Of a stretch of 64,000 nt of DNA, positions 2,500-64,000 are shown piece by piece. Every line of letters begins with the position of its first letter. Position 1 is the first letter of the stretch. The translations under genes were made by a program, and so were the position numbers. The DNA is from Microthyrium microscopicum (lineage: Eukaryota): positions 251,256 through 315,255 of the forward strand of contig MU004245.1 in assembly GCA_010405405.1 (NCBI GenBank), read 5' to 3'. The notes under the pieces are model-generated. The model was given only the letters and a program-made list of their open reading frames with translations. It searched no databases and was not told the DNA's origin.

Positions 2500-2880
2500 A
2501 ATCCGTTGTGAATAGTTCCAATTTACCCCTTTCTTGTTCCTGGTTATTTGAATCCTATATTTTGTATTGAGCGAACTGTCTGTCATCCTTTCTTGTTGTA
2601 TTCTGCAGGGTGCATAGGCTGCTTGGGCAATAACGACTATAACGGCTGAACGGTATACTCTTTTGATGGGATTGTCATAGCGATGGACGCTTTCGGGCGA
2701 TATAATTACTGCGTAGATGATTGATTTTAGAATGTCAGTCGAATGAATTGAATGAACAAGAACTCGCCAACGCATTTGAAGCGAAATAAAGTACTCTGTA
2801 GGAAATCCTAGTAGATGGTAGACATCGCACTCTTTGGTAGAAGTTGTCCTTTTCTTGAAGCTGTTGCGCCTCAAGTGGTT

Positions 2881-3075
2881 GACAAAATAAAGGGCGCGCT
2901 CCCAGCGAGTGCGATGGCTCCCATAAAAGACGATCTGGTATCGAGTGCTTTATTTACCATCGAGCGCGTTCAGACTTGGGCATTTTATTGAATGCGATGG
3001 GAAACATAGCACCTTTTAATCAACAGCGTTGGTGGGAGCCATCGACGCTGATGGGAGAACGCCAGCTATTTTGTC
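2881..3075. mobile_element. MITE-like hairpin element, copy A (inverted relative to copy B)
   Basis: Terminal inverted repeats GACAAAATA/TATTTTGTC and inner CGATGGCTCCCA/TGGGAGCCATCG. Reverse complement aligns along its length with 11069-11281, including AAATAAAGCACTCGATA. Confidence 0.7.
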
Positions 3076-3210
3076 CATCGATTGAGCCTCCTCATATGCA
3101 AGATTTCAGACCGATCTAACCACCAAAACTTCTCCCCCCACCTTTTTTTCTTCCACAAAACCACCCAAAATCCATCCACACTTCCAAATCCCACAAATTG
3201 AATCGCCATA

Positions 3211-3825
3211 ATGCCAAAATCACTATCCAAAGTCCAAAAACACATCACCAAAAAGAAGGGCAAAATCACCCACCTACACGCAAACTCCCGCGATGCCCAA
3301 TCCCTCCTCCGCGCCGGCGCCCGCGACGCCTCCGTCAGCAAATCAGAAATTCTACGCCGTCGCGTAAACAAACCTCTCGTCGAGCGTGTACAATTCTTTC
3401 AGACTGCGCTATTTCCTCCTCCGCCAGAACAAATTACTACCAACGATGCCATGGACACACAAACCGAGAATGACGCAAATGTGCAGGCGAAGGGAAATAG
3501 CGGACCCTTGGATGTGGAAGCTACACAAGCACTGATCGTCAAGTTTTTGGCACGTCATGATGAGGAGCGCGCTGAGTTGGCGGCCACACGGAGAACTGGA
3601 CGACCTGCTGGTGCACGGGAAGATGCGTTGGCGAGCAATGGCAAGGCGGAGAGGGCGGAGTATGATGCGGGGTTTTGGGTGCCGGATTTGGGCGATGAGA
3701 AGAATCTTGTTGCGCTGGAGGAGTGGAATGGACGGTGGATTGGGTTGAATATTGTCAAGTTTGTGCGGGTGTCGAGAGGGGGTGTGGTTAGTGCCAGTAA
3801 ATGGCCACCGAATGCGCAATCGTGA
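3211..3825 (+). CDS. TMA16: Translation machinery-associated protein 16 (pre-60S factor)
   Basis: 204-aa intronless ORF with MPKSLSKVQKHITKKKG, LHANSRDA, RRTGRP and GFWVPDL motifs typical of Tma16. Confidence 0.85.
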   Translation: MPKSLSKVQKHITKKKGKITHLHANSRDAQSLLRAGARDASVSKSEILRRRVNKPLVERVQFFQTALFPPPPEQITTNDAMDTQTENDANVQAKGNSGPLDVEATQALIVKFLARHDEERAELAATRRTGRPAGAREDALASNGKAERAEYDAGFWVPDLGDEKNLVALEEWNGRWIGLNIVKFVRVSRGGVVSASKWPPNAQS

Positions 3826-4035
3826 TGAGCGTTTGGGGTTCCAAAAGACACGAGATATCACGAAACGGACAGGTTATAATTGATGCGGTAATTGATTTCG
3901 TGGGTATATACATAGGTCTCGGGAGGTAAGTGTCTCATATTATCATGATGAAAAGCAAACAACTAATCGTCTAAGCCAGGTCAAGCCAATTTGGCATCAA
4001 TGCGTACCTTTCACGACAATATTTGCAAGCGCTTC

Positions 4036-6664
4036 TTATGGATAGCTTCCACGTGGATATTCTCCTGGAACATGCAGATTGCTGACCGACTGATCTGTGT
4101 TGTTGCGGACCATTCCTCGTGAAGGCAGTTGTTCAACTACAGGTGCTTGGGTGTGCGATACACTGTCCGTTTGGCCAGGAACACCTGTACTCTGGTCATC
4201 GTGGATTGCTGATCCTGCAGAAGGCGCAGCTATTACACTCGCTGGTAGTGCTCTGCTTCGTAGCGGGTCGCTGGCATGGTCATGGGTAGCAGTAACCGCG
4301 GCAAAGTATGCCTTATCAGGAGCTGAAGTAGTGTTTGAATCAAATGCACCACTGGGATGCTCCGTTAGCCCAGGACTTGTTGTCAAGTATTCTGCCTGGT
4401 GAGCCTGTAGTAGAGGATTTTCGACTGGTGGCGGTGTCTCGTGAGATGGCCCTTTGTGCGAAGCATGCCATGAAGCACCAGCAGCAGGGCGCTGAGAAAC
4501 ATAGCTCTGATCCACCGAGCGGAGCTGGGCAACGCCAGCCGCGCTATCCCCATAGCCACTATCGCCATCAATATGACGCAGATCTGAATTTCTCAAGGGG
4601 ACGTCTCTTTCTGTACCCAGGAATTTCATTTCTTCGGGTTCCGATCCGTCACTAGAAGGTGTAAGACGCTGGTGTAAGCGATCTTGGCTCAATTGAACGT
4701 CGCTAGGAAATCGCCCACCTTGTGGACGGTCCGAGTTTGAGATCTGACCAGCTTTGGGAAGTGCATCGCCGTTTGCGCCGCTCATTAGCAAAGTGTTGGC
4801 ACTGAAGGGAATTTGATCTGCTTCATCGTCATCGAAGCTACTGACGCTCTTTGTGCTTTGGTTGCTGAAGCTTCTAGTATGGCGTCGCACAAAGTCATTA
4901 CGCTCTTCGCCCGTTTTTTCAGTGAGGGATTTGATGTCGTCGTACCATGCCAGCATCGTGTCGTATGATTCAGCTCGGAAAACCCAGCTATGTCCTCTAT
5001 GCATTCCGCCGGTCTGCCGACCCTTCAATATGAACTTATGAGAGCTTGAATCTGGTTGACTATGTGCTCCGAGTTTCTGGTCCAACAAGTACAATGACAT
5101 TATTGGTTGCTGTGTATAGACAGAGTCCGCTGATTTGAACTCATGAAGATGTGTCGGAGACAACACAAACCTATTTCTTGTCAGATCTGCTGGTATAAGG
5201 ACAGGAAAAACCTACCAGCCTGGTGTATAACTTTTCAGATATTTGCTCTTTCGCTCTAGCATCCCGGCCCGAACTTCTGCAGATGCTGGATGATATTTCC
5301 CTGGGTATTCCAGATCTTGAGCGCGTCGAAGAGGAGTATCGGGATTGATGAAATGTGGGTCTTTTAAAATGAAGTCTACCCACTCTGCATCCTTAGGTAG
5401 GCTGAGCGGACCGTTTTGCAATCGATCAACTGTTTCATAAGCTTCGTCTGCCTCCTTCTTGAGAATAGTAGCAAATGCTCGATGGGCTTTCTGAATCTCG
5501 CCGACAACGATAGCTTCAAGTTCACGACCTGAGCCTTCAATATTTAGATATGCCTAATCGAGTCAGAAAGTCCATAGGCATGTAAGTAAAGGTTAACTCA
5601 CCCGGTGGAGATAGTTCTCTTCGTCAACCAATCGTTCAACTTGTCTATCCACTGATAATCGAATGATATAGGGATCGTCTTTGCCAGCCATGACCTTGGC
5701 TTCTGTGTCAACGGCGGCCAAGGATTCTTGCAAAGTGCTGACCACTTTTTTGGTGTGCTCCTTCTCTTTCTCAATGGAATTCTTGAAGTCACCAGAAAGA
5801 GACTTGATTTCTTTAATCTTTGATTGTAAATCAGCTCGGAGGCTGTTGAGCTGAGATATAACATCACGATCAATCTCCTTGGCCTTGAGGTTTTCAGCAA
5901 CAGCTTGTTTGTGAAATTGTTGCCATATCTCATGGGCATCGCCTATTCCACCAGCAGGAAGAAATCCAACCGGCATTGCTAGGCTGTTGACCGTGTGCGA
6001 TATTTTGGTAGCAGTTTTGGCTCGTGCTTCGTATGTCGATTGAACCTCGCGGAAGTACATGATGAGATCTTTCAGTACTTTTCTCCACCCTGGACAATTA
6101 TTAGCGAATATGTGGGAGATGAGAGGTATCCCAAGTACCTTGAAATCTGGCAGCCAGGATATCCGTCGGTGAGCCTGTGGTGGGCACCGGCGTAAAGAAG
6201 ACACTCCTATTGTCGTCTCCACTTGTATCGTCATACGTGACTCCTCCGATGCTACCTGCTCGTACACTTCTCTTGCTACTACTCCTCTTCAGGCTTGACT
6301 TCCTGCTCAAGCTCTTCTTTTTCTTCAGCGTATTGTTCCTGCTAACACCACTGACACCAGAAACATTCGACGCAACTGATGCGCGCGATGTCGATCGCAT
6401 AATCGATGGATCTTCGGATTCTTCTTTATGCGACATTCTTGAGATTCTCTCAGCAAGAGTAACTTCGTCTTGTATGGGTCCTCTGGAGTCGCCTCGTTGC
6501 ATGTCAAAACTTTGCGCGAGGGGACTTGTCGGGGCAGGCTTGCTCGATAGATTGGAGTAGTCTGCGTTTAGCGCGTCCTCGTTTAGAGCTAAGCTATTGC
6601 TTCGGCCTATGTTGGAGGAAGCAAGGCGAGTCGAGGGGTCGTAACTGCTGTGAGAATGCATCAT
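4036..6664 (-). CDS. SLM1: Slm1-like BAR-PH phosphoinositide-binding protein (multi-exon)
   Basis: Spliced ORFs: TPVPTTGSPTDILAARFQ|GWRKVLKDL (intron 6090-6138), a coiled-coil BAR region, then a PH domain (VRAGMLERKSKYLKSYTPGW...LSPTHLHEFKS...WVFRAESYDTMLAWY). Confidence 0.85.
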
Positions 6665-7435
6665 TCCAGCCTTTCCGGCGAGGGTGAATGTATGATGGGG
6701 ATCGTCTCAGGGTAACATGTGAGGATGCTCAGCTCAGATCTGTAAGCTGTTGCAGCAACGGACGTAGTCAGCTAGAGCTTTCGCACTCTTGTAACTTGCT
6801 GGGTTGGTGTGGATTTCGATGTAGAAATTGTATAAATGGTGAAAGGGATAATCACAAGCCTTTCCAGCAGGATTTGTAGATTGTGAGGATTCCCCTCAGT
6901 TTTGACAGTTGACGCTCGTGTAAACGCGTTCACGCCTGGTGACGTAGCCAGCCTTCCCAGTCGCTTCCGAGCCGAGCCAACACCATTGATCAAATCTCCA
7001 GCTGCGGATGGTCGATGCCGAATCATCCACTCCAACAGGGAGCCGTTTTGCCATGTCTTGTACACCTACACTAGCGACTGTCACCGCTGTTACCTGCCAC
7101 TACTACCGCTGGGCAATGTATGATGCTAACCCGCCACTTGTGTTCTCATCATTGCCGTCTGCACCGCCCACTCGCCCGACGATGTTTGGTTGGAAGATAA
7201 ACATTTGAAGTAGGGTAATTTGGCCACCCGCTGCAATTCCCAGTATTTCGGATAGCGTACGGTATACGGTAGCATTCTATAACCACTCATCCTAGAGAAT
7301 ATCTTCTCGGTTGTGCGTCCGAGTTACCGATCTACAGTGAACGACTTTAAGCACTTGAACCCTGCCGTGTTTCCGAAAGCACGCATCATTCAGCAGACCA
7401 TGTTGTCGAATGTCGATATCATATATCAGGAGGTA

Positions 7436-8311
7436 TTATTTGTTTACTACAAGGTTCTCAAACAACGAATCTAATTTGCGCTGCAACTGCGAGGCTTCCT
7501 GTTCCACGTTCTTGACTTTCTGCACAGCTTGGTCTGTATCTTGTGGCAAGCCTTGATACGCTTGAACCTTCGAAGCTAGCAATGCAATTTGGTCCTCCAA
7601 TTGAACAATTTCCTCCTCCTTGGCGACAAGATCGTGAACATTAGTCGCATCCGACTCTTTCTGGTTCGATTGTGCGCTAGCCAAGCGGTCCGAGTATTCG
7701 CCTAGTTTGGCGCGTAGCTGCTTGGTGTTGCGGCTCCACTCAAGTGTCTGTCGTTGCAACGACAAAGGTGGTTGAAAAGCCGGCGATCGTAGCTCTTGAA
7801 GCTTGGCTCGCAGCGAAGTGAGCTCAGCCTCGAGAGTCTTTTGTAGTTGTGTGAGATGGATCAACTGTTGGCTAAGAATTTGTGATGTTTGGGTGCGATC
7901 GCACAGCGTTTCCGCGATGGAGTAGGTGTCTGTCTTGGGCGCGTCCAACTTCGTTGCGACGTCTGCCAGCACTTCCAACGCTTCTTTTCCATCAATGTCC
8001 AAAGCACTTTCAACTGCACTCATCATGGTTGCGTCTTGTTCTTTGCTGGCTTTGGCTTCGTTGAGGGCTTCTCGCTGGACATTCCATAACAAATCGCGTT
8101 CTTCATCCGCCTTTTCGTTTGCGGAAGAAAGGGCTAAAAGAGCCTTTAGAGTGTCTTCGTTGCGCTCAAATTGAGGTACGCTGCGGCCTTGATATTTGGC
8201 GGAGAGCCAGGAGTCGACCTGGTGCCATTCTTGCGCCTGTGCCCTCACCTGAGCAGCTTTGGAGGGAGAGAACAACGCCGTTGGCAACAGATCTAGAGAA
8301 CCAGATTCCAT
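7436..8311 (-). CDS. Coiled-coil protein resembling HAUS/augmin subunit 1
   Basis: 291-aa intronless ORF. N-terminal WLSAKYQGRSVPQFERNEDTLKALLAL and C-terminal YQGLPQD resemble the HAUS1 family; heptad coiled coil. Confidence 0.6.
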   Translation of the reverse strand: MESGSLDLLPTALFSPSKAAQVRAQAQEWHQVDSWLSAKYQGRSVPQFERNEDTLKALLALSSANEKADEERDLLWNVQREALNEAKASKEQDATMMSAVESALDIDGKEALEVLADVATKLDAPKTDTYSIAETLCDRTQTSQILSQQLIHLTQLQKTLEAELTSLRAKLQELRSPAFQPPLSLQRQTLEWSRNTKQLRAKLGEYSDRLASAQSNQKESDATNVHDLVAKEEEIVQLEDQIALLASKVQAYQGLPQDTDQAVQKVKNVEQEASQLQRKLDSLFENLVVNK

Positions 8312-8785
8312 GGTTTAGGTGTTTTCTTCATGCGAACTGCGGTTGTAAAGCAATGGCATGCTAGATGAAAAGACGATGGGATGAGTTGATCAATGTGGGG
8401 GATCTGCAAGTTTTGATGCAGGGGCACATCGATTTTATGTCGCACATGAACACCAACGGGTCTACCTGTCGTGCCTGTTAATAATGGCTCACTCCCATCA
8501 GGTGCGATGGCTACCATCTGCTACGTTCTACTACCAGGTACTTTATTTCCCTTTGCTTGCGCTGGGAACTGAAGCAAATTTTTCTCATAAAGCTCAACGT
8601 GGAATCGCCTTCAGCAATGGTGTTCTTACCGATGGGTATGGGTAATGAGTGTAAACGTATGTCCTCCTGCTTTCGTTTCCAGTAAGTATTGATTCTCTTT
8701 CTACTTTCCTTGTAAGATGTGGTCGACATGTATCCTCCCATTCTCGTGTCTAATGATTCTTAGTTTCATTAAGAACCCTTCTGAA

Positions 8786-11557
8786 CTACCCGTAGTATCT
8801 CCTCCCAGCCATTAGTTCTCTTATTTTCTCCCTTTTAGCCGTATCAAAGCTGTTGCTAATCGACCTACGTGCTTTCTCCTCTAGCAACGTCCATGGCGCT
8901 ATTATGTCTCCCTCCGGACCCATAAAAATCAACTTCTCCCGCCAGGGAATCTTGCTTTTCTGAGGGACGAAGTAGCAACACGGTGCTCGAAGATTTGGAT
9001 TGGCACCATGCTGCAGTAAAAGAGCGACAGCAACAACGTTCTCAGACAAGACTGCAAGTTGTAGTGGCGTTCCATACCGCGTTGGATGATCAACACCAAA
9101 TTTCATTACCCCTGATCTCTGTTGGTTTGGGTCAGCGGCTCCTTTTTCCAGTAGCAAAACTGCCACATCGCGGTTCCAATTAATGGGAAATATAGTGTTG
9201 AGCAATGAAAAGTCTTTAGAAGCAGTGACTCCATGACTGGTGATGAGAGACTCTAGTCGTTTGAGGCGGGTGGCCGGCAGGAACTCAGTGTATGATATGA
9301 ACACCTCTAATATGCTTGGAACGCGACTCTCATGTTCACGATCAAGGCATCTGTACTTTGCCTCAAAGCTTGCTCCTAATATCCATTAGCATAAGTAAAG
9401 ACTACATGCGTTACGAAGGAGGATGTCAAGCTAAGAGACTTGCTAAAGATAACACAATCTTTGGTTTGTGACGACATTCGCACTTTATGGCAGCCATCAT
9501 GTTTCTTGGTAGTATCTGAAGGTGCTCAGACACGAACAGTTCTTACCTTTAGAGACGAGGAATTGCATTTGCTCTTCCCATTCGTTGTGATTGAGATCAG
9601 AAAATATCGTCTCTAAAAGAGCGGATGTCTTGCCATCAAGAAGCCGGTTTGTGGTCGACGTGATATTGATATTGGCGCCTTTGGCTACTAACCATTTCAA
9701 CCAATTCAAGTCTCCGGAGTTCGCAGCCACGACAATGGCAAAGGTCATTGATGTTTTTGTACTCGGGAGTCCTCTTGTGGCACGTGTGAGGGCAGGTTGT
9801 ATCTTGACGTTAATGTCGCCGCCGTAGAGAGTGTATTGTTTGAGCCAATCCTCTAAATTGCGTCGCTCATAATAGATCTCCGCACGCAGAACTAAAACAG
9901 GAGGTCGCTTAGCAGAATCGAGGTAACACTGGGTCATGTTCGGAGCGCCCATAGGCTTCAAACCATATTCGGCAATCATGGCAAGATCCGACTCCGATAG
10001 TTCAGTGAACAATTTACTCGCGTTACTCCCGGTTACAGGTTCAAGCTTCTGGTCACTGCCCCCCGGATGTATGGGAAGTATCGAGGTTCTAAGCGCAATC
10101 GGTGCTTGCTTATGTACTCGTTCAGCGTTACTTTTCGGTAGTAACACGGCGCTTCTGGTGATGCGCTTGGCTTCCTTACCCAGTGTGACCTTTGTCTCGA
10201 TAGCGTGCACTGAGGGTTTTGACTGCAAGGACAGCGACTCGGCTTGGTTATGCTCGCTAGGTTCCGGTATCAAATCCTGATTCGCTACCTGCCTAGGAAC
10301 ATCACTCTCTTTGATTTTCGGTGGCGGTGTAGGCGCTCTCTGATTATGAATGCTCTCGTCAGAACTACGTCTACGTGCTATCGAATTGGCGTTTTCCAGA
10401 TGTCCTGGCAAATATCGCCTCGATGTTGAAGGGGTTTCTTCATGTGATGAGGAGCTATCCTGTTCAGGCACGTCTCGATCGGAATATGTTTGAGATAACC
10501 TGTCCTCTTCATACTGCAGTACTGTTTCTCGCTCAACAACCGTCTCAGTGTATGTAGTAAGATTCTCGAGGAATCTATTAAGCACGTAATTGCGATTTTC
10601 ATTTTCAGCAGACTGCTCCTTTGTAAGCATGGCCTGCAACTTGAAGACGACTTCCAGGATTTGTTCGGTGTCAAGTTTCACGTTGTCAACGTTCCCGATT
10701 AGCTGTGTAGTTTTGTCCAATATATGGCCAGTGTCCTGTTTGATTTGCTTGGTGACTGCCCAGGACATGACATCGACTGAGAGCTGAAGGGCTCGTTTGT
10801 GGGTTTCCAGCTGATCTCTGGCCTTGTTTATTTCAGGCTTTCCAAATTCTGCCCATTTGATTTGCTTTCCTAGAGAACGTTTCGTCATAGAGTCGTACTT
10901 TTCTAGGGTCTTCTCTATCTGTTGAATGGCTTCTGAGCAGCACTCTAGAATACCAATAACCTGAGACTCATCAGTACAGGTTTTACAATTGTGGGAAATA
11001 AAGCTCTATAGCTAAGTAGTATGAGAGCCATCGAATTCGAGGCCGTCCACAGGTTTCGAAGTGCTTGACAACGGCACGGCAAAATAAATGGCGTACTCCC
11101 ATCAGCTCTAATGGCTACCACCAGCGCTGCTAACCATAAGGTGCTTTAATCCCCATCGTATCTGGTAAATATTCCCAATGCGAACGCCCTTTATGGCAAA
11201 TAAAGCACTCGATAACAGACCGTAGCGTCTGGGCGCCATCAGAGTTGATGGGAGTATGCCATTTATTTTGCCATGCCGTTGCTTAACTGCATGGGATATC
11301 GGGAAGAAGCAAAACATAGGAAATCTCACCTGCTCTCCTACTTGGGCAGGAAGAGAAAGACTGCCATCAGCATCTTCCTTGATATCATCACGAAGAAGCT
11401 CTAGAGTCCGCTTGATTTGTGAAAGTTCAAGCTCAACCGCGTCGAGATCTGCTCGTGAATCCCGAACAGAGCGTATGAACTTGTAGATTGTTTGAGACGT
11501 GGATGCAATAAGCTGTATGGCAGTGATAGAGCCTTTGGTAATCGTTATCGGGTCCAT
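8786..11557 (-). CDS. Fungal STAND N-terminal (HeLo-like) domain + disordered linker + ankyrin-repeat protein (multi-exon)
   Basis: MDPITITKGSITAIQLIAS...FIRSVRDSRADLDAVELEL N-terminus; 369-nt intron 10961-11329; ankyrin motifs (LKWLVAKGANIN, LLLEKGAADPN, YGTPLQLAV...LLLQHGANPN). Internal exon boundaries near 9300-9550 not fully resolved. Confidence 0.7.
11069..11281. mobile_element. MITE-like hairpin element, copy B (213 bp, intronic)
   Basis: 47-bp terminal inverted repeats (11069-11115 / 11235-11281) with 4 transition mismatches; non-coding; lies inside the 369-nt intron; homologous to 2881-3075. Confidence 0.8.
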
Positions 11558-51219: not shown

Positions 51220-52860
51220 CAAGATCTTCTTCTTCAATGTCTCGGTCAAGCCAAGGTCATCAACGAAAAAATTGTTTGCCTCAGCCAGAAGTAGTGCAAT
51301 ACTAGCCAGAGTGTAGGGCTCAAAAATTGCTGTACTAATACATTATACCCCCGAGGCAGGGAACCAGCGGGTGTATAGGAAAAAGAAGAAAAAGAGGAAG
51401 AGATGGAGAAATCAGGGCAGTTGCTCAGGCTTTATACCCCATCGCTAAGGGAGATAATCTTAGTCATCATGCATGAGAAAAGGCAAGAGCTCCGGAACTA
51501 GTCGTACCATAGTAAGTACCTTGAGATAATGAATGGTCTGACACCAGACAACCTGAGAAGCTGGCGAGAAGATCTTCTTCAATGTCTCGGTCAAGCCAAG
51601 GCCATCAATGAAAAAAGTGTTCGCCTCAGCCAGAGGCAGTGCAATACTGGCCAGACAGCGAGTCTCAAAAATTGGTCTTTATACATTAATACGAACTGGG
51701 CATTGGGCCAGCAGGGTATGGAAGAAAGAAGAAGAAGAGTTAAAGAATCTTGGGGAGATGCTCAGGCTTTATACCCTTGCCGAGGCGACTGTCTGACCTG
51801 TATGGCGAGGTAGTAACTCCCGAGCTTGCAGTACAATGGCAAGTGCATTGAGATAGCGAATGGTCTGACCTCAGACAACTTTGGAAGTTGGCGAGAAGTT
51901 CTCCTTCTTCAATGTCTTGGACAAGCCAAGCCATCAACGAAAAAGTGTTCGCCTTAGCCAGAGGTAGTGCAAGACTGGCGAGACAATGGGTTATAGGCAT
52001 AAAGTAGCAAGCTACCACTATGCGTTTTCCCCGTGTCCTAAAAAATTTGGAAAAGTCTTCCGCAACGCAAAAGGCTGTATGGGTGCTGAAGAAAAGAAGA
52101 AGAGTTGAGAAACTTGGGGGAATGCTCAGGCTTTATACCCTCCACCAAGCAAGCAATCTTAGTCATCTTACATGATGAGAGAGACAGTAGCTCCTAAGCT
52201 TGAAACCCATATGGCAAGTACATTAAGAGGACGATTGGTCTGACAGCATGCGATTTCAGAAAATGTTCTTCTTCTTCAATGTCTTGGTCAAGCCAAAGCC
52301 ATCAATGAAAAAAAGAGCGTTCGCCTTAGCTAGAGGTAGTGCAAGACTGGCCAGACAGTGGGTTCAAGACATGAGATGCGTTTTTCCCGAGTCCCAAAAA
52401 ATCCGTAGGATTAGATCCCACAGTTGTATGAAGAAGAAGAGGAAGAGTTAGAGGAACTGGGGATATGCTTAGGCTTTATACCTCTGCCAAACAGACAATA
52501 TTAGTGAGAGGCAGTTGCTCATGAGCTTGGAGTACTAATGGCAAGTACATTGGAGGATAGGTGGTTCGAGATCAGACAAGTTCATAAGAAGGTCCTTCTT
52601 CTTCAATGTCTCAGTCAAGCCAAGGTCATTAATGAAAAAGAGTATGTTCGCCTGAGCCAGAGGTAGTGCAATACTGGCTAGACACTGGGTCCAAGGCATA
52701 AAATGCGTTTTCCCCGAGTCCCAAAAAATCGGATAGTATTCAGCTGTACGTAGCAGCGCGGCGGTCAGAAGAAGAGGAAGAGTTTAGAAGCTCGGGGTAG
52801 ATCAGACTTTATAGCTCATTCAAGGAGAGAAGCTTACTCATCGAGTATGTTAAGAAGCAG
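51220..52860. repeat. Degenerate tandem array of five ~330-370-bp units
   Basis: Core CTTCTTCAATGTCT(C/T)(G/A)G(T/A)CAAGCCAA...GCC(T)nAGC(C/T)AGAnGnAGTGCAAnACT recurs with CAATGT at 51235, 51580, 51910, 52277 and 52604. Each is followed by a GAAGA-rich tract and CTTTATA. Confidence 0.92.
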
Positions 52861-54324: not shown

Positions 54325-56427
54325 TCAACTAAAATCGAGAAACAGTTCTTCTCCACCAAAACCTGTTTGAGGGGGTAGGAAATCTTCGAAATATCTCCAG
54401 GAAACATCATCTGTCTCAAATCCGTGAGGCTCTGGGTTAGCGCTCGGAGACATCAATTGCGGCTCGAATGGTCTTGTGTTTCGTGAATCTTCTTGATTTG
54501 CTTCGGATTCTCTGGCTCTCTTTCTTGTGTAGGAGTCTCCGGCGGCCGCCTTTCGATCTAATTCTTTCATGAGAAATGACAACAACTTTATTCCACGCGA
54601 AGCAATCATGCTCATAGGAAACCCAGAGAGATGATCTGAAGCTTCTATCGCAAGAGCTTTGTGATCATTATATTCTGGTTCCACTGTTTGACGATGGAAA
54701 GCGTCAAGACACAAGATTATAGCAGCAGCTACGACAAACGCTTGTTCGATCCACAAGACAGGTCCATGGGTATCTGATGCGGCTTGAGCTTCATTGATAA
54801 TCGTCTTCGAAGCCGCAATGCATGTCCTCCGCGTAAATGAAAACGTTGAATTGGTAAAAGAGGGGCCGAGGAATTTTCTATGAATCATAATGATCTTGTG
54901 GGCAGCACATAGGGCCAACATCCTCCGTGCCCAGGGAACAAAGATAGGCCAGCTCTCCGGTAATGGCGAGTGATTGGATAGAAAAGTAGGAAGCGAAGCC
55001 TTAACAAGTGCTCTCATCTTCTCATCATAGAGCAAAACCTGCTCGTACTTTGTGTACAGTGTATTTGAAGACGCCATTGCCTCTTGCAATTGAGGCATTA
55101 GCGCAGCAATATCATAGAGATAGTTACAATAGCTCGTCATCGTCGGTATTTGTAACGGTAGCTCCTGGGTGCTTGAATCATTACAATTTAAAGGCTTTGC
55201 TGTATCGAAGTGTTTGGGATTCAGAGTAAAACTCTCAGAAAATGGAATCGAAAACCAACTTTGAGTACAGAGTTGACACCAGATTCGGCGTCCAGTCTCT
55301 CTTTTTATTCTTCTTGCAGCTTCAACTTCCCCGTCGGCTGTTGGTTGTATGCTACCTTCAGCAGGACCGACCGAGCTTGCTTGCTCCTCGCCTAGTCTAT
55401 TCAGGCCCAGAGACTCAGCGATCCGATTCGCGGCTGAAAGTAAGACAGATTGCGTATTGGATTTTCCGATAGTGTGTGCAGATATCGTTAAGCTCGAAAG
55501 GGCCTGTACTGAGTATATCGTATGCTGTTCCATGTAATCGGATAGGTTTAAACAGGTGATGGTGGCATTGTACCACTGATTTGACAGCTTCAGTCTTTCT
55601 TCCAGTTGAAAGCCCCAGTGGTTTGCAGAATTGTCTGTTGCACAAGTGATTGCACCTGTGAGGAGAGAGAACAGGAGGGCCACCCACTGAAGATTGACGT
55701 CAAAATGCTTGACATTGCCTTGATATTTGGTATAAAAGTCATCCAACTCATTTTGGAAAACAACTGTATTGTAGGATCCATGATACCATACAAGGCAAAC
55801 ACTATGAAAGTCCACCAATTGGTAGACATGCTTCTTTGAGGGTAATAGGGTTTGAAGCATATCTAATTGCGGATCTTTGATGGACTTTGTGAGGAGCGGG
55901 AGCTGCAAACTTGATGTATTACTGACTATCGGGATATGCCTTCTAGGACCACTCTCATTTTCAGGAGAGTGATGGAACTCTTGATCTTTTTGGCGGCCCC
56001 AGGCGAGAAACTCCAAAATCGTGGCGGCATCGTCACCATGTGCTTGCTCTTGGATTACATGGTGAGCAGAAGCTGGTAGATCGATATCAGGTACTGGCTG
56101 TATTGACCCTGTTCTCCTCGAATGAGTGTTTCTCGAAGATTGGAGGCTTGAAATCAGGGAAGCTTCGGTGGGAGAAGGGGAATATTGCTCAGTCGGTTCG
56201 GTCGATTGGCCTGGATTTCTTGCTGCTGTGGGCGATAGGAATCTGATTGATTGTGCCTGTAGTTGGGCTTCCAATTCGGCATTCCGACTCAAAAGCTTCT
56301 GAACTTCATCAGGGAGCTTTCGGGAGCATGAGGACTGCTCTCCGCGCTTGGTACAGGGTCCGCAGGGCAGGTTGAGATCGCATTTGACTTTCCTCTGATG
56401 GCAACTGGAGCACGAAAGTCGTACCAT
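54325..56427 (-). CDS. Zn(II)2Cys6 transcription factor with fungal-specific TF domain (probable cluster regulator)
   Basis: MVRLSCSSCHQRKVKCDLNLPCGPCTKRGEQSSC; middle homology region AESLGLNRL...RETGRRIWCQL; intronless from ATG 56427. Confidence 0.92.
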   Translation of the reverse strand: MVRLSCSSCHQRKVKCDLNLPCGPCTKRGEQSSCSRKLPDEVQKLLSRNAELEAQLQAQSIRFLSPTAARNPGQSTEPTEQYSPSPTEASLISSLQSSRNTHSRRTGSIQPVPDIDLPASAHHVIQEQAHGDDAATILEFLAWGRQKDQEFHHSPENESGPRRHIPIVSNTSSLQLPLLTKSIKDPQLDMLQTLLPSKKHVYQLVDFHSVCLVWYHGSYNTVVFQNELDDFYTKYQGNVKHFDVNLQWVALLFSLLTGAITCATDNSANHWGFQLEERLKLSNQWYNATITCLNLSDYMEQHTIYSVQALSSLTISAHTIGKSNTQSVLLSAANRIAESLGLNRLGEEQASSVGPAEGSIQPTADGEVEAARRIKRETGRRIWCQLCTQSWFSIPFSESFTLNPKHFDTAKPLNCNDSSTQELPLQIPTMTSYCNYLYDIAALMPQLQEAMASSNTLYTKYEQVLLYDEKMRALVKASLPTFLSNHSPLPESWPIFVPWARRMLALCAAHKIIMIHRKFLGPSFTNSTFSFTRRTCIAASKTIINEAQAASDTHGPVLWIEQAFVVAAAIILCLDAFHRQTVEPEYNDHKALAIEASDHLSGFPMSMIASRGIKLLSFLMKELDRKAAAGDSYTRKRARESEANQEDSRNTRPFEPQLMSPSANPEPHGFETDDVSWRYFEDFLPPQTGFGGEELFLDFS

Positions 56428-57336: not shown

Positions 57337-58389
57337 ATGGCTCCAACCAAATATTCCACTCGACGGATTCCTACCATCTCTTTGAAAGACTTTGACAACA
57401 GAGTTGACGAGATCACTCAAGAACTTGTGGAAGCCTCAGAAAATGTCGGCTTTTTCTGCATTGTTGACCACGGAATCGCCCGCCAAACAGTGGACCAAAT
57501 GTTCGACAACTCCGCCCGTTTCTTTAACCTAGAAGATTCAACCAAATCACATATTCCCTTCTCACCTCAAAGAAATGCGGGTTGGGAGAAGAATGCGCAG
57601 ATCAGGCCATCCACTGGCGCTGTTGATCGAAAAGAATCCTATCAAATGCAATTTGGAGCCGGAATGGAAGGTCTTTGGCTTAACGAAACCGAGCTTCCAG
57701 ATTTCAAAACAGGATCATTGAGCTTCATGCATCAAGTCCAGGCTGTCAGCGAAAAGCTCATGACTTGCTTTGCTCGCGGACTTAGATTTGAGGATGACTA
57801 CTTTATCAAAGCTCACGACATAAGCCGTCCAGATTCTCAAACTGTCACCAGGCTCTTACACTACTTTGAGACTCCAGATACTCCAAACACTACTGGAGAA
57901 GTCTTTCATAGAGCTGGAGCACATACAGATTGGGATTTCCTCACTCTTCTTTTCCAGAAGGCCGGTCAGTCTGGACTGGAGATCTGTCCCGGCCGAGAAG
58001 TTAGCACATCTTTTGGATATGGAGATGTTTGGACCAAAGTCGAGCCCGACATTGAATCAAATGCAATCGTTTGCAACATCGGAGATCTGCTCATGTCCTG
58101 GTCGGACGACAGATTCAAAAGCACTTTCCATCGAGTCAAAGCCCCTTGTGAACCTGGTGACTACTATGGCGAGAGATATTCAATTGCTTTCTTTAATCAG
58201 CCATGCAAAGACGCTAAGATCCAGGGACCCCTCAAGAAGTACCCATTGGTCACAGGAGCAGAATTCACCAAAAATGCTATGGCTCGCAACTTTGCTGCGT
58301 TACAAGCAAAGATTCACAAGGAGGAAGAGACCAAGGTTTCACATGATAACCCCATCAGAGCCAACACAGCTGTCAAAGCCAGTGCTTGA
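57337..58389 (+). CDS. 2-oxoglutarate/Fe(II)-dependent dioxygenase (IPNS/DIOX_N family)
   Basis: IPTISL, ENVGFFCIVDHGI, RLLHY, AHTD (HxD), NIGDLLMSWSDDRFKSTFHRV (distal His) and RYS (RxS 2OG-binding) motifs. Confidence 0.93.
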   Translation: MAPTKYSTRRIPTISLKDFDNRVDEITQELVEASENVGFFCIVDHGIARQTVDQMFDNSARFFNLEDSTKSHIPFSPQRNAGWEKNAQIRPSTGAVDRKESYQMQFGAGMEGLWLNETELPDFKTGSLSFMHQVQAVSEKLMTCFARGLRFEDDYFIKAHDISRPDSQTVTRLLHYFETPDTPNTTGEVFHRAGAHTDWDFLTLLFQKAGQSGLEICPGREVSTSFGYGDVWTKVEPDIESNAIVCNIGDLLMSWSDDRFKSTFHRVKAPCEPGDYYGERYSIAFFNQPCKDAKIQGPLKKYPLVTGAEFTKNAMARNFAALQAKIHKEEETKVSHDNPIRANTAVKASA

Positions 58390-58875: not shown

Positions 58876-60371
58876 TCATATGTAGTTTATGTTCATATGG
58901 TTCCTCGCACCAATACCTGATCTCTTCTTTATGCCTGCGATGGAGTCTCGAGCTTGCTTGATGATGACCTTCTCGTTGGCGTGTAGTAGCTCACCATCAT
59001 CGACCACCATAATTCCATCAATGACGACCTTTTCGACATTTGTTCCTGTGCAGCCATGGACCAGCAAAGTGATTGGATCCATTCCACCGACAGCACCATT
59101 TGGATCCCAAGGTGCGCAATCTGCAGAATCTGGATTGACAACCACAAAGTCGGCCTTTTTACCGATTTCCAGACTCCCAATCTCGGCCGCCAGGCCTAGA
59201 GCTCTAGCACCATTGATAGTGGCCATTTCCAGTACATCATAGGCTGTGATGAGCCCGGCACTTTCTCTCGCTCCAGAGTGAAGGATTGCGGCAAGATGCA
59301 TTTCACGGAACATGTCGTATGTATTGTTGCAGGGAGCTCCATCTGTTCCTAAAGAGACATTCACATTGGCTTTGATCATGTCAGGTATAGGAGATATTCC
59401 GGATCCAAGTTTGCAATTACTTGTTGGATTATGAGACACTGTGGTGCCTGACTCTCGCATGATCTCAAAGTCTGGATTGGGATCAGGGTGTACGACATGG
59501 GCCAGAACAGTCTTTTTGCTTGTCAATTGAGCTTTCTTGCAAAATTCCAGTGGACTGCAATTGTATTCTGAGTGAAAAATTGGACGATCTGCAGGAGCTT
59601 CCGCGCAGTGCATTGTCATTCCTATCCCGTATTCATGAGCTGTTGATCCTATGGCTGCATGAGCTGAAACTGGTGAGCCACGCGGAGTTCCAGCAGCAAA
59701 CCAAATGTGTAGTCGGTCATTGAAATGGCCATGGTAGGTCTTGTAAGCCATCAGAGCTGCTTCGATAGACATAGAAGCTACATCTTTGTCTCGTGCATCG
59801 TTCAGTTTCAGATTCGCGTTGGTTTCGGTTGTTTTGATCAATTTTCCCTGAATGATCATTAGCTCACCAGCTACCTTTTACGACGATGGACGTGACTTAC
59901 AAGGCAGGCTCGTACACCCAATTCTCCAACGGCTCTAACAACATTCTCTATCCCGCTTCCGTGTGTCAACATTGCTTCCAGGAAACAAGTGGTTCCAGAT
60001 TTGAGCATTTCGGCGATCGTCAATCGTGCTGCTACGTAACCATCATTGTCTTGGTAGCTAGCTTCCAAAGGCCAAATGGCATCGCACAGCCAAGAATGCA
60101 GAGGGAGATCCTCAGCCAGTCCCCGTAGTAGTGACTGAGCGAGATGAGCATGAGTATTGATGAGTCCAGGGATTATGATGCGGTTACTGCAGCTGATAAC
60201 AGTTTGAGGCGATCCAAATTCGGAAATGATCTCAGACGTCTTTCCAATGGCTTTGATGACACCGTTCTGAACCAAAATCGCTCCGTCCGAAATAACGTCT
60301 CTAGATTGATTGACAGTTATGAGGGTGGCGTTAAAGTACAACACACCATCTGGACGACCCGTGGATACCAT
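58876..60371 (-). CDS. Metal-dependent amidohydrolase, MTA/SAH-deaminase / Atz-Trz (COG0402-type) family; intron 59848-59900
   Basis: PGLINTHAH (HxH), IWPLE, EMLKSGTT, MHCAE (HxxE), LAHVVH, LGTDGAPCNN (Asp) and GSLEIGKKAD motifs. Confidence 0.92.
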
Positions 60372-60797
60372 CGTAATGGGCGTCTAACTTTGAAAAATAA
60401 TAAAGAGTAACAAGCGTTCAGGGGGATATATGTAAAGTAGTTGTGAACGATTTCTGTCTTGAAAACAAGTTGGTAGCAGGCGATTTCGTCTGCTTTGTTC
60501 TTTTTTCACTAAGAACCTCTGAAGCTTCTCAATGATTTCGTAAGTCGATTCAATTTAACCCTCTGAGTCCATCGTGCGGCACGACAGTCGGTCACAGACC
60601 TATTTGGTGAGGACCTCCATGTAAGATATGGGTTATGCCCGGAGGCTGCCGAAAATCCAGCTTCGTTGGCGGGAAAGAGACTACCTAGGATCTATCATCC
60701 AGTTACCAAGTACTAGAATGGGTCTAGACTACCCTACCATTCCTCCGAAATACTCGATTGAATCTGTTCTGCTGCATAGAAACGTGGGTTGTGGAAC

Positions 60798-60809
60798 TCG
60801 GAGCTCCGA
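60798..60809. promoter_or_regulatory. Putative Zn2Cys6 binding site, perfect palindrome TCGGAGCTCCGA
   Basis: Near the middle of the divergent deaminase/permease intergenic region; matches 57093-57104. Confidence 0.55.
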
Positions 60810-61164
60810 TGCTGCCTGGGTTTGATAAGCCGGACCTACCGAAACATGCCACCCTTGAGCCCCTATCATTCGGATTTCGAGGCTCCAATTACTTGTTTAC
60901 CGCACCAATCTACCCGGTTAGCAGAACGATAAGAGACACTGTTCGCGATGGATTGAAAGCTGTATTCAATCAGTGTATCTTGTCCATCTCGGCTTCTATG
61001 GCGCCATATCACCATGCATCTAACTTCCTTCAGGAGGCCGGTGCTTTCCTATGGGGTGTGTACCGGTGATAGAGAAGCATATATAGAATGAAAAGATAAC
61101 TTGTATCGGTAAATGAAAGATCGTCAACAAGCTTCTCCAAGTTTTTGAATCGTCCAACTTCATC

Positions 61165-63072
61165 ATGTCGATATCAGACTCACCCAATGATATGGAAAAG
61201 AAAGGCATTGAGCCAGTTGCCAATTTCGCACCATCCATTAGCGATGGCGAAGTTCAGGGTAACAGCAGGTGGACTGAACTCAAAAGCGACCTGCGAGCTA
61301 CCTTTTGCACGAAAGAAGGATGGTTTGGGGATTATGTTTGGCTCCTCATCTCGATTTCAAGCACTTCAACCTAACCTTCTTTAGGATTATCTCTACCTTG
61401 TTACACCAAACATTTGGCCATTGAACCGAAAGTACAAGAACTATGTCGCTCCATTTTATGGCCTATCAGACAAACTGCCAGTTGTTCTGACCATCCTACT
61501 CGGTCTTCAACATGCTCTGACAATGATTGGCTCCATTGTATCGCCTCCTCTGGCCATCGCTGCTGGTGCTTTCAACTTCGACCCCCAAATGACAGAATAT
61601 TTGGTCAGCACTTCCTTCATCACAACCGGCATTGCGACAGCTCTTCAAGTCACCCGGTTACAGATTGCTCAATCACCATTCTTCATCGGTACTGGACTTC
61701 TTTCGGTCGTCGGGCCCACTTTCGATATACTACCTATCTGCTTTAACTACGCCGCTATGCGTTACAAGAACGGTACTTGTCCAGTAGCTTCTGACGGTAC
61801 GCAACTACCATGTCCTGATGCTTGGGGCGCGGTATTGGGAACGATGCTTTGCACTGTTTGGGTCCAAATTCTGATGAGTTTCGTCCCACCCAAGACTTTG
61901 AACAAGATTTTCCCTAAGCTCATCACTGGATCTCTCCTTCTTCTAGTTGGTGTTTATCTTGTTGGCAATGGGATGCAAAACTGGGGCGGTTCCATGAATT
62001 GTCACGGTGGGGAAGGATTTTATGCTCTCTGCCCCAACGTGGCTGCTCCTAAACCTTTGTTGTGGTCAGTCATCTTATCATTTCTTGCTCTCCTGTAACT
62101 GACAATGTCTAGGGCCCATCCAAAGCTTATCGGCCTCGGCTTCAGCGTATTTTCGACTATCATCGTCGTAGAATCATTAGGCAGTCCTTTGATGCGCTCT
62201 GCTTCTGTCATCATAGGCCTGGCAGTCGGATGTATCATCTCGGCTTGTACTGGCTATTGGTCGATGACCGAGATCAAGGCTGCTCCAGTCGCAACATTTC
62301 CATGGGTTCACACCTTCAAACTCTCTGTTGATGGAGCGCTAGTTCTTCCGCTCATAATCATGTTCGCATGTCAAGCAGTGAGCTGCATGCCAGATATTCT
62401 AGCCACTGCCGAGATCTCAGGGGTAGAGATTGAGGGTTCCTCTTTCAACAGCAGAGTGCAAGGAGGAATCCTATGTGACGGCCTGGGTTCGTTCCTTTCT
62501 GCTCTTGCAACCGGTCCTCCAATGGTCAGTCAGGCAGGAAACAACGGAACTATCGTTTTGACAAGCTGTGCGGTAAGTGATCAGTTCTGATTATCCGAAG
62601 CAAGTGACTGATATCCTTTCAGAGTCGTCGCGCTGGCTGGGCCGCTTCCGCTATTCTCATTCTCATGGGATTATTTGGAAAATTTGGCGCTGTGTTCGCC
62701 TCTATGCCACCAAGTGTGCTGGGTGGAATGCAGGTCTTCCTATACAGCACCATTGCCGTTGCCGGAGTACGTGTTCTTGGCCTGATTGATTGGACACGAC
62801 GAGACAGATTTATTCTCACCGCTGCTCTGGGAATTGGTTTCATCGACATTGTCCAGCCTACTTGGTTCTCTCAAATCTTGGCATATTCTGGAGACAATGT
62901 TCACCTTGCGGGCCTCGAACAGGGCCTCAATCTCATCGTGGAAACTCCTTTTGTTGTTGCAGCATTTGTCGGTGTATTTCTGAACCTCGTTCTCTCGAAG
63001 GACAAGAGCGCCATGGATTCAAGATACGGAGACGAACACAAACATCCAGTGATAGGATCTGTATCTGAATAG
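61165..63072 (+). CDS. NCS2/NAT nucleobase:H+ symporter (UapA/UapC-like) with atypical signature; three introns
   Basis: WFGDY|DYLYL, LGLQHALTM (TM1 QH), GTGLLSVVG, RVQGGILCDG, signature AGNNGTIVLTSCA|SRRAG, PPSVLGGM and RRDRFILTAALG. Confidence 0.93.
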
Positions 63073-63200: not shown

Positions 63201-64000
63201 CTAGTTATATCGGACCTCACCTGCTCCTTCTCTGAACCAGTCGTCGTTTTGAAGACTTTCTTCAGTTGTCGCAAAGTTAATTATGGTACTTTTCATCCTC
63301 GTATACGTGTGGTAGGCGTCTGAGTTCGGTTAGCTCTTTGGGATTCGCAGTGATCGAATAATTTACCAATCCCGTTTTCACTGCCAACACCAGAACTGCC
63401 CATCCCGCCCCATGGACTCGAAGGATCATTACGGTGGTGGGTATTGACTGTACGCTTAAATAAGAACATTTCGGTGGCTGCATTTATTACTCACCCCATG
63501 TGATACCAGCATCAATCTGAGCTGCTATTCTGTACGCTTGAGATAGATCGGTTGTCCATAACGCGGCACCGAGTCCAAACTCGCTATCATTTGCGAGATT
63601 TACTGCCTCGTCCTCATCATCAAATCCAACGACAACAATCACGGGTCCAAAGGCTTCTTCTTTCCATATCCGTGTGTCCTTAATCTTTGCTTCTGGGCCA
63701 TCAATTAAGACAGTTGGTGGATAGTAATATCCTCTTTCGAAGTCGATGTCGTCAAGCTTTGATGTTCCGCTCAATCTTTGGCCTCCACAAAGCAGACGAG
63801 CCCCCTGATTTAAAGAACTATCAACTATGTCGATCACATTATTCAGTTGTCGTAACGAAACTATTGGGCCCATTAAGCAGCTATTGTTGGCAGGCGATCC
63901 CATACGATTTCGTATCAAATCGCACTTTGCTTCTAGCTTAGCAAGGATATCGGCTTTGATCGAGTTTTGAACCAGAATTCGTGTGGCTGCTATGCACGTC
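63201..64000 (-). CDS. Aldehyde dehydrogenase, 3' part only (5' end beyond window); two introns in the 3' end
   Basis: Catalytic Cys at the window edge (TCIAATRILV), GYYYPPTV, EEAFGPV, LANDSEFGLGAALWT, DPSSPWGG; ends ...GEVRYN*. Confidence 0.93.

What the first reader, a model, noticed from the sequence alone, without database searches (positions are those of the whole stretch)
62372..62572. NCS2 permease has both canonical substrate-binding residues replaced
Seen: TM8 reads QAVSCMPDILAT and the signature reads SQAGNNGTIVLTSCA. Established (recalled): A. nidulans UapA has CACE356CIGD360VTAT and TF406AQ408NNGVIALT416R417CA, with E356 and Q408 contacting xanthine/uric acid. By eye alignment E356->S, F406->Q, Q408->G and R417->S, while TM1 QH, D360, N409, G411 and T416 equivalents are kept. 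Inference: an intact transporter with a re-shaped, roomier pocket and a novel specificity. This is independent support for an unusual cluster substrate.
Basis: partly seen in the sequence, partly recalled or inferred. Interest (0 to 1): 0.75.

Follow-up and report, generated by a model that had tools for sequence, protein, structure and literature searches.

The report
Orphan fungal purine transporter finds partner
This is a known but unexplained kind of fungal purine transporter with a rebuilt binding pocket, and its near-constant pairing with a guanine-type deaminase gene suggests it imports a chemically modified guanine as a nitrogen source.

Summary
The substitutions are real (E356S, F406Q, Q408G against UapA, gap-free) but not peculiar to this genome. 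They mark a conserved filamentous-ascomycete clade (120 of 120 top homologues) that includes the Aspergillus niger and A. brasiliensis proteins, most likely the published orphan 'UapD-like' NAT subfamily; the motif is already printed in a 2018 supplement. R417S is not a clade trait.

What seems new is the context. The gene is under strong purifying selection. It sits head-to-head with an amidohydrolase in 23 of 24 outside loci with enough flank. That enzyme has intact catalytic residues and guanine-deaminase-class recognition residues, although the genome has a separate ordinary guanine deaminase. A thymine-hydroxylase-like oxygenase is often adjacent. The shared promoter carries a CGG-N6-CCG site in 16 of 20 cases (shuffles: 2.2), as do this genome's uricase, xanthine dehydrogenase, allantoicase and canonical permease promoters.

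Best reading: an uptake and deamination branch of purine catabolism for a modified guanine (0.55), most simply an N-methylguanine (about 0.3). The substrate is inferred, not shown. The neighbouring aldehyde dehydrogenase is not part of the cluster.

The parts
61165..63072 (+). UapD-like NAT/NCS2 permease gene; exons 61165 (or 61192)-61335, 61385-62064, 62113-62572, 62623-63072; 577 aa from the second ATG (P0001)
   Evidence: intron 1 excised in a public contig; introns 2 and 3 rest on splice signals and homology
62372..62395 (+). TM8 motif QAVSCMPD: S at UapA E356, P at G359, Q/E at C353, D360 kept
62528..62572 (+). TM10 signature SQAGNNGTIVLTSCA: Q at F406, G at Q408; N409, G411, T416 kept
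61715..61726 (+). TM3 motif PTFD: P at V153, F155 kept, new invariant Asp at S156
60640..60651 (.). CGG-N6-CCG site (UaY/Ppr1-type, consensus recalled) in the divergent promoter, which also holds six HGATAR sites (60692-61099)
58876..60371 (-). Amidohydrolase-superfamily deaminase, 480 aa (P0327), one intron near 59847-59899; H74, H76, Q79, T211-P212-R213-G214, H237, E240, H274, D326
57340..58389 (+). 2OG-Fe(II) dioxygenase; nearest solved structure is thymine 7-hydroxylase; frequent but not constant cluster member
54325..56427 (-). Zn2Cys6 transcription factor; cluster member in a subset of loci

Best explanation
The gene encodes a working UapD-like NAT transporter that is the entry step of a side branch of fungal purine catabolism. 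Shown: pocket changes, conservation, gene linkage, enzyme motifs, promoter motif. Inferred: (1) the transporter keeps UapA's main-chain contacts, F155 and the gating residues but drops the two side chains that read xanthine's N7-H (E356) and N1-H/C2=O (Q408), so it takes a guanine-like purine substituted at those places; (2) the divergently transcribed deaminase removes the 2-amino (or alkylamino) group, releasing nitrogen and giving a substituted xanthine; (3) where present, the 2OG dioxygenase oxidatively removes the N-methyl group, giving xanthine for xanthine dehydrogenase and uricase; (4) the pair is induced with the purine regulon and repressed by good nitrogen sources. The simplest substrates are N-methylguanines from RNA turnover (7-methyl, 1-methyl, N2-methylated); that narrower claim is about 0.3.
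For: UapA contact map from PMC4837479 passages. R481, T526, F528, D388 kept in nearly all homologues covering them. In 15 of 16 chosen gene pairs (the other is identical), permease pN 0.045-0.22 against pS 0.63-0.87, and the permease is more conserved than the deaminase in all 15. Deaminase adjacent in 23 of 24 loci with at least 900 nt upstream (19 of 20 after removing near-duplicates); the miss, L020, ends before the place where its close relative L035 has the gene. Consecutive locus tags in named genomes agree. The canonical paralogue L011 has none of these neighbours. Deaminase Q79 aligns with the Gln after beta-1 that defines the guanine-deaminase class; present in 39 of 39 homologues covering it, with P-R-G in 119 of 120. 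A canonical guanine deaminase lies elsewhere in the genome. Prokaryotic Gln-bearing relatives sit by adenine deaminase and/or xanthine dehydrogenase in 6 of 17 loci scanned. CGG-N6-CCG in 16 of 20 promoters, shuffle mean 2.2, 0 of 200 shuffles reach it; 1.4 per kb against 0.13-0.17 background; HGATAR 88 against 42.9. The same site lies upstream of this genome's uricase, allantoicase, xanthine dehydrogenase and canonical permease.
Against: No substrate was measured or docked. The published study's title calls the A. brasiliensis protein intrinsically misfolded, and a review says no data support nucleobase transport. The oxygenase orthologue is in 8 distinct loci but missing from 5 with about 5 kb or more upstream (L022, L024, L027, L039, L041). 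Its thymine-hydroxylase-like residues partly recur in unrelated paralogues, and HxnY shows such likeness does not fix a function. The deaminase is below every listed NCBIfam cut-off and scores best with a model named 5'-deoxyadenosine deaminase (353 of 522 bits); prokaryotic relatives are only 31-37% identical, and 11 of 17 scanned show no purine neighbours. Four promoters lack the site; the guanine deaminase stretch has none; two other CGG spacings were also enriched among 42 patterns tried. The UaY consensus is recalled.
Confidence: 0.55

Rival explanations
1. The substrate is another 2-amino-oxo heterocycle such as a pterin, 8-oxoguanine or isocytosine/triazine-like compound, not a methylated guanine.
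For: The Gln after beta-1 selects a core electron system, not a ring size; relatives include 8-oxoguanine deaminase and AtzA/AtzB; loss of F406 would suit a differently shaped ring.
Against: The promoter site shared with uricase and xanthine dehydrogenase points to a product entering the xanthine/urate route; 8-oxoguanine would also fit that, pterins less so.
Confidence: 0.13
2. The substrate is a nucleoside (guanosine, deoxyguanosine or a modified one): the enlarged pocket and new Asp/Gln hold the sugar, and the oxygenase attacks the sugar.
For: New invariant polar residues D162, Q415, Q/E362; F to G in the deaminase's PRF motif; best NCBIfam model is a nucleoside deaminase.
Against: In UapA the F155 backbone N contacts N9 and F155 is kept, so the space opened is at N7 and N1/C2 rather than N9; the characterised NATs listed in the paper read carry free bases or ascorbate.
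Confidence: 0.1
3. The protein works on an internal membrane (for example exporting modified bases from the vacuole after RNA breakdown) or acts as a sensor or partner of the canonical permease rather than as a plasma-membrane importer.
For: Would reconcile strong conservation with the reported failure in heterologous expression (title; ER and vacuole location recalled).
Against: Gating and dimer residues are those of an ordinary transporter; no targeting signal was tested.
Confidence: 0.12
4. It is a second guanine/xanthine permease with lower affinity, paired with a second plain guanine deaminase.
For: Purine-regulon promoter; Gln/PRF relatives lie in ordinary purine operons.
Against: Q408P in UapA cuts binding more than 100-fold and here both side-chain contacts are gone; the genome already has a canonical permease and guanine deaminase.
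Confidence: 0.07
5. The protein is a conserved but inactive, misfolded relic.
For: Title of the 2015 study.
Against: Saturated synonymous change with low non-synonymous change, invariant new pocket residues, intact frames across several classes of fungi, conserved linkage and promoter site.
Confidence: 0.03

Closest known systems
UapD-like NAT subfamily (A. brasiliensis AbUapD; A. niger An02g00560/A2QBM4)
   Same: Same clade (support 100 with P0278 = A2QBM4 and the A. brasiliensis protein P0280) and same SQAGNNG motif as printed in the supplement of PMC5972032.
   Different: Nothing material in the protein. The papers seen give no function, gene neighbours or regulation; those are added here.
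UapA/UapC xanthine-urate:H+ symporters of A. nidulans
   Same: Fold (TM-score 0.91 by target, 43-44% identity), TM1 QH, F155, D360, D388, N409, G411, T416, R481, T526, F528; purine-regulon-type promoter site.
   Different: E356S, F406Q, Q408G, G359P, V153P, S156D, C353Q/E, A469R.
Guanine deaminase class of the amidohydrolase superfamily (GuaD, 8-oxoguanine deaminase, NdmH N2,N2-dimethylguanine hydrolase)
   Same: Partner enzyme has the Gln after beta-1 and the Glu/His/Asp catalytic set.
   Different: 23% identical to the genome's own GuaD; PRG in place of PRF; nearer to the PRK07228 group; the NdmH aromatic and CQNN residues were not mapped.
Thymine 7-hydroxylase (N. crassa, 5C3P) and HxnY
   Same: Partner oxygenase keeps equivalents of N87, E122, R190, H214, D216, H271, R286, F292.
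   Different: Distant (E 7e-22); Y217 is W (allowed in some T7H) and N294 is Q; activity untested.

Membership tests
NAT/NCS2 family | PF00860 domain and 7+7 UapA/UraA fold | tested here: met
   (pLDDT 89.8)
Canonical NAT (UapA/UapC) | TM1 Gln-His | tested here: met
Canonical NAT (UapA/UapC) | TM8 Glu-X-X-Gly-Asp | tested here: not met
   S-C-M-P-D (definition)
Canonical NAT (UapA/UapC) | TM10 Phe/Tyr and Gln/Glu/Pro of the signature | tested here: not met
   Q and G
Canonical NAT (UapA/UapC) | Xanthine/urate:H+ symport | not testable with these tools
   needs uptake assays
Ascorbate transporters SVCT1/2 | Ser-Ser-Ser-Pro-Asn signature with TM8 Glu | tested here: not met
   SQAGN and no TM8 Glu; about 20% identity
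UapD-like subfamily | Divergent fungal NAT clade lacking the canonical motifs | tested here: met
   20 chosen members form one side of a branch, support 100, in a quick tree of 46 rows; description
UapD-like subfamily | Includes the second NAT of Aspergillus section Nigri | tested here: met
   A. niger, A. tubingensis, A. brasiliensis members
UapD-like subfamily | Identity with the sequence named AbUapD in the defining paper | tested here: inconclusive
   paper not held; the text of the 2018 supplement does not print the name beside the clade
Guanine-deaminase class (partner enzyme) | Gln after beta-strand 1 plus Glu/His/Asp and metal ligands | tested here: met
Canonical GuaD (partner enzyme) | PRF motif and orthology to GuaD | tested here: not met
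   PRG; 176.5 bits against a cut-off of 375.4
MTA/SAH deaminase (database label of the partner) | Met after HxH, D-M-Y and HAPY motifs as in the solved MTA/SAH deaminase | tested here: not met
   Q, E-A-M and GTPRG instead
UaY purine regulon | (T)CGG-N6-CCG(A) site in the promoter (consensus recalled) | tested here: met
   core site met, window copy lacks the 5' T
UaY purine regulon | Urate induction dependent on UaY | not testable with these tools
   needs expression data

The most novel reading that the evidence does not exclude
UapD, its deaminase and the oxygenase form an undescribed, widespread fungal pathway that scavenges N-methylated guanines from RNA turnover (7-methylguanine and relatives) and returns them to xanthine, making UapD the first NAT specialised for alkylated purines and the oxygenase a free-base purine N-demethylase.
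Probability: 0.3. Interest if true: 0.8.

Novelty: new variant of a known kind. Interest (0 to 1): 0.55.

Why it matters
UapD has stood since 2015 as a conserved transporter with no function, even described as misfolded. The conserved partner enzyme and promoter site turn that into a short, testable list of substrates and conditions. If right, it shows how a NAT changes specificity by rebuilding both substrate-binding side chains, adds a branch to the well-studied fungal purine pathway, and corrects a widespread MTA/SAH-deaminase label. The residue changes alone are already in print and would score low.

Tried and rejected
Misalignment: rejected, gap-free alignment. Private mutation or decay: rejected. 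Aldehyde dehydrogenase and carbonic anhydrase as cluster members: 0 of 34 loci, 13 of which have 5 kb or more downstream. The cluster's own Zn2Cys6 factor as binder of CGG-N6-CCG: disfavoured, since the four promoters lacking the site all have the factor adjacent, while loci without it nearby have the site (small numbers). First AlphaFold model from a clade-only alignment was poor (pLDDT 63) and not used. The careful tree did not finish; the quick tree is reported. Atlas searches gave only family-level names. No RNA holder on record was listed; the one run laid is a guess at RNA and cannot give levels. A genome-wide count of the strict site showed no enrichment over its control (230 against 489); it served only as background. 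Paper searches for UapD, An02g00560 and neighbouring ids, Moth1224 and methylguanine catabolism returned nothing linking UapD to a deaminase; subscription journals are not covered. Earlier-findings look-ups gave nothing that bears on this. No docking was possible.

Full report
OBSERVATION. The window is fungal DNA; a record 100% identical over exon 3 (P0001, 577 aa) is labelled Microthyrium microscopicum by its source. The permease gene has four exons between 61165 and 63072. Exon 3 aligns without a gap to UapA residues 268-419: E356 is S, F406 is Q, Q408 is G, R417 is S, while QH, D360, N409, G411 and T416 are kept. A model from a 101-sequence alignment has mean pLDDT 89.8, above 90 through TM8 and TM10, and its best match is UapA 5I6C (TM-score 0.91 by target).

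NOT A PRIVATE VARIANT. Of 254 homologues found, the 120 listed are 75-100% identical over the exon and span several classes of filamentous ascomycetes. All 120 have S, Q and G at the three places and P at G359; position 417 is G in 107, S in 12 and C in 1. G is allowed by the published canonical motif. Among 150 wider representatives, 86 cover both motifs: 61 are E/(F,Y)/Q, 6 are S/Q/G, 19 are other. Twenty chosen members form one branch with support 100 against 26 others in a quick tree. The clade also gains near-invariant residues around the pocket: D at S156, P at V153, Q/E at C353, R/K at A469, while F155, D388, R481, T526 and F528 are kept. The pocket is rebuilt, not just emptied. This genome also has a canonical paralogue with E and FAQ on contig C14.

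ALREADY NAMED. The clade contains A. niger An02g00560 (A2QBM4) and an A. brasiliensis protein. The supplement of PMC5972032 prints SQAGNNG for A2QBM4, Bipolaris maydis and Talaromyces marneffei (passages). Its main text (parts 1-3 of 7 read) names a non-canonical fungal group, UapD-like. PMC5307856 (passages) places UapD in section Nigri with no data for nucleobase transport. The defining paper (Krypotou 2015) is not held; I saw only its title, which calls one A. brasiliensis NAT intrinsically misfolded; ER retention after expression in A. nidulans is my recall. Membership of UapD is therefore very likely but not checked against the named sequence.

IT IS UNDER SELECTION. In 16 chosen gene pairs (one identical), the permease shows pN 0.045-0.22 against pS 0.63-0.87, mostly saturated, and is more conserved than the neighbouring deaminase in all 15 informative pairs. 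An inactive relic is unlikely.

THE CONSERVED UNIT. A scan of metagenomes gave 34 loci (found with motif-bearing patterns, so their motifs are not independent evidence). The amidohydrolase lies head-to-head with the permease in 23 of the 24 loci that have 900 nt or more upstream, 19 of 20 after removing near-duplicates. The miss, L020, is 88% identical to L035 and ends before the place of the gene. Consecutive locus tags in Alternaria, Stachybotrys and Didymella agree, and by eye 21 of the 119 other deaminase hits share a contig length with a permease hit. The oxygenase orthologue (68-80%) is in 8 distinct loci and absent from 5 with about 5 kb or more upstream; the transcription factor is in 6 distinct loci; the aldehyde dehydrogenase and carbonic anhydrase are in 0 of 34. 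The canonical paralogue has none of these neighbours within the 9.9 kb fetched.

THE DEAMINASE. Databases call it an MTA/SAH deaminase, but it lacks that group's Met, DMY and HAPY motifs. It has H74, H76, H237, E240, H274, D326 and Q79; Q79 is in 39 of 39 homologues covering it and P-R-G in 119 of 120. Q79 and TPR align with the same motifs of the genome's own canonical guanine deaminase, a separate gene 23% identical. PMC12828455 (parts 1-2 of 5) shows that a Gln after beta-1 defines enzymes acting on guanine-like cores, and PMC13054789 (parts 1-2 of 9) describes such enzymes specialised for N2,N2-dimethylguanine. Of 80 prokaryotic relatives kept (31-37%), 55 have this Gln and 25 have Met. 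I scanned 71 neighbours of 17 Gln-bearing loci: 6 loci have adenine deaminase and/or xanthine dehydrogenase, 11 do not. Against: no listed NCBIfam cut-off is met, and the best model is named 5'-deoxyadenosine deaminase.

THE OXYGENASE. Its nearest solved structure is thymine 7-hydroxylase (E 7e-22). It keeps the metal, 2OG and base-binding equivalents listed in PMC4787775 (passages), with W for Y217 and Q for N294 in all 8 orthologue-bearing loci. Some of these residues recur in unrelated paralogues, and HxnY is a similar protein without an assigned reaction (PMC9304392 passages), so demethylation is a guess.

REGULATION. In 20 divergent promoters (window plus 19 distinct loci), CGG-N6-CCG occurs in 16 against a shuffle mean of 2.2, with 0 of 200 shuffles reaching it; 42 patterns were tried, and CGG-N0-CCG (8 against 2.0) and a direct CGG-N7 repeat (10 against 3.7) were also above all shuffles. 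Density is 1.4 per kb against 0.13-0.17 in flanking DNA. HGATAR sites number 88 against 42.9. TCGG-N6-CCGA is, from memory, the site of UaY, the purine-catabolism activator. As an in-genome control, the core site lies within 1.5 kb upstream of uricase, allantoicase, xanthine dehydrogenase and the canonical permease, but not in the guanine deaminase stretch. The window's copy is at 60640-60651. It is in 4 of 9 oxygenase promoters.

EXPRESSION. One public contig, RNA by guess, lacks permease intron 1 and introns of the deaminase, oxygenase leader and transcription factor, which fits transcription of all four genes. It retains permease intron 3 and shows a minus-strand-type skip near intron 2, so the full mRNA is not shown. 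It may come from the genome's own project.

MECHANISM. In UapA, E356 binds N7-H and Q408 binds N1-H and C2=O of xanthine, F155 and F406 pack on the ring, and main-chain atoms of V153, F155 and A407 bind the rest (PMC4837479 passages). Here the main-chain half and F155 remain and the two side chains that need free N-H groups are gone. With a guanine-class deaminase, a frequent methyl-oxidising-type oxygenase and a purine-regulon promoter, the simplest reading is import of a guanine substituted at N7, N1 or N2, deamination, optional demethylation, and entry into the xanthine-urate route as a nitrogen source. I put 0.55 on a modified guanine and about 0.3 on N-methylguanines in particular. Rivals are other amino-oxo heterocycles (0.13), an internal-membrane or sensing role (0.12), nucleosides (0.10), a plain low-affinity duplicate (0.07) and an inactive relic (0.03).

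VERDICT. The transporter variant is a known orphan subfamily. The conserved partner, its motif-based reassignment and the promoter site were not found in the paper searches, which miss subscription journals, including the defining UapD paper and its supplements. New variant of a known kind; interest 0.55.

Noticed in passing
window 62053-62103 and 63319-63495: The laid contig skips 49 nt with CT..AC ends inside the permease gene, keeps permease intron 3 and splices the aldehyde dehydrogenase introns; this may be an antisense read-through from the convergent gene.
   Followed up: partly
L017:31-567, L027:6856-7869: A second, different 2OG oxygenase (68% identical between the two loci) sits next to the deaminase; L017 has both oxygenases, L027 only this one.
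   Followed up: partly
L047, L080, L120 (genes 2476-10156): PRK07228-like enzymes, whose model is named 5'-deoxyadenosine deaminase, have guanine-deaminase-type Gln and PRF and lie in adenine deaminase-permease-xanthine dehydrogenase operons; the model name looks doubtful.
   Followed up: partly
P0278 (A. niger An02g00560): The 624-aa model has a long N-terminal extension absent from 560-aa near-identical proteins; a wrong start could matter for heterologous tests.
   Followed up: no
window 63319-64000 and L009:246-3153: Aldehyde dehydrogenase divergent from a carbonic anhydrase just past the window; one Penicillium permease homologue (P0049) is labelled carbonic anhydrase by its source.
   Followed up: no
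L009:4034-5545: Transferase with a trichothecene 3-O-acetyltransferase-like N-terminal domain.
   Followed up: no
window 51460-52800: Several short frames share a similar peptide stretch, suggesting degenerate local repeats.
   Followed up: no
P0121: A deep-branching, unnamed member (about 52% identical) with A in place of G at position 408 and the other clade residues kept.
   Followed up: partly
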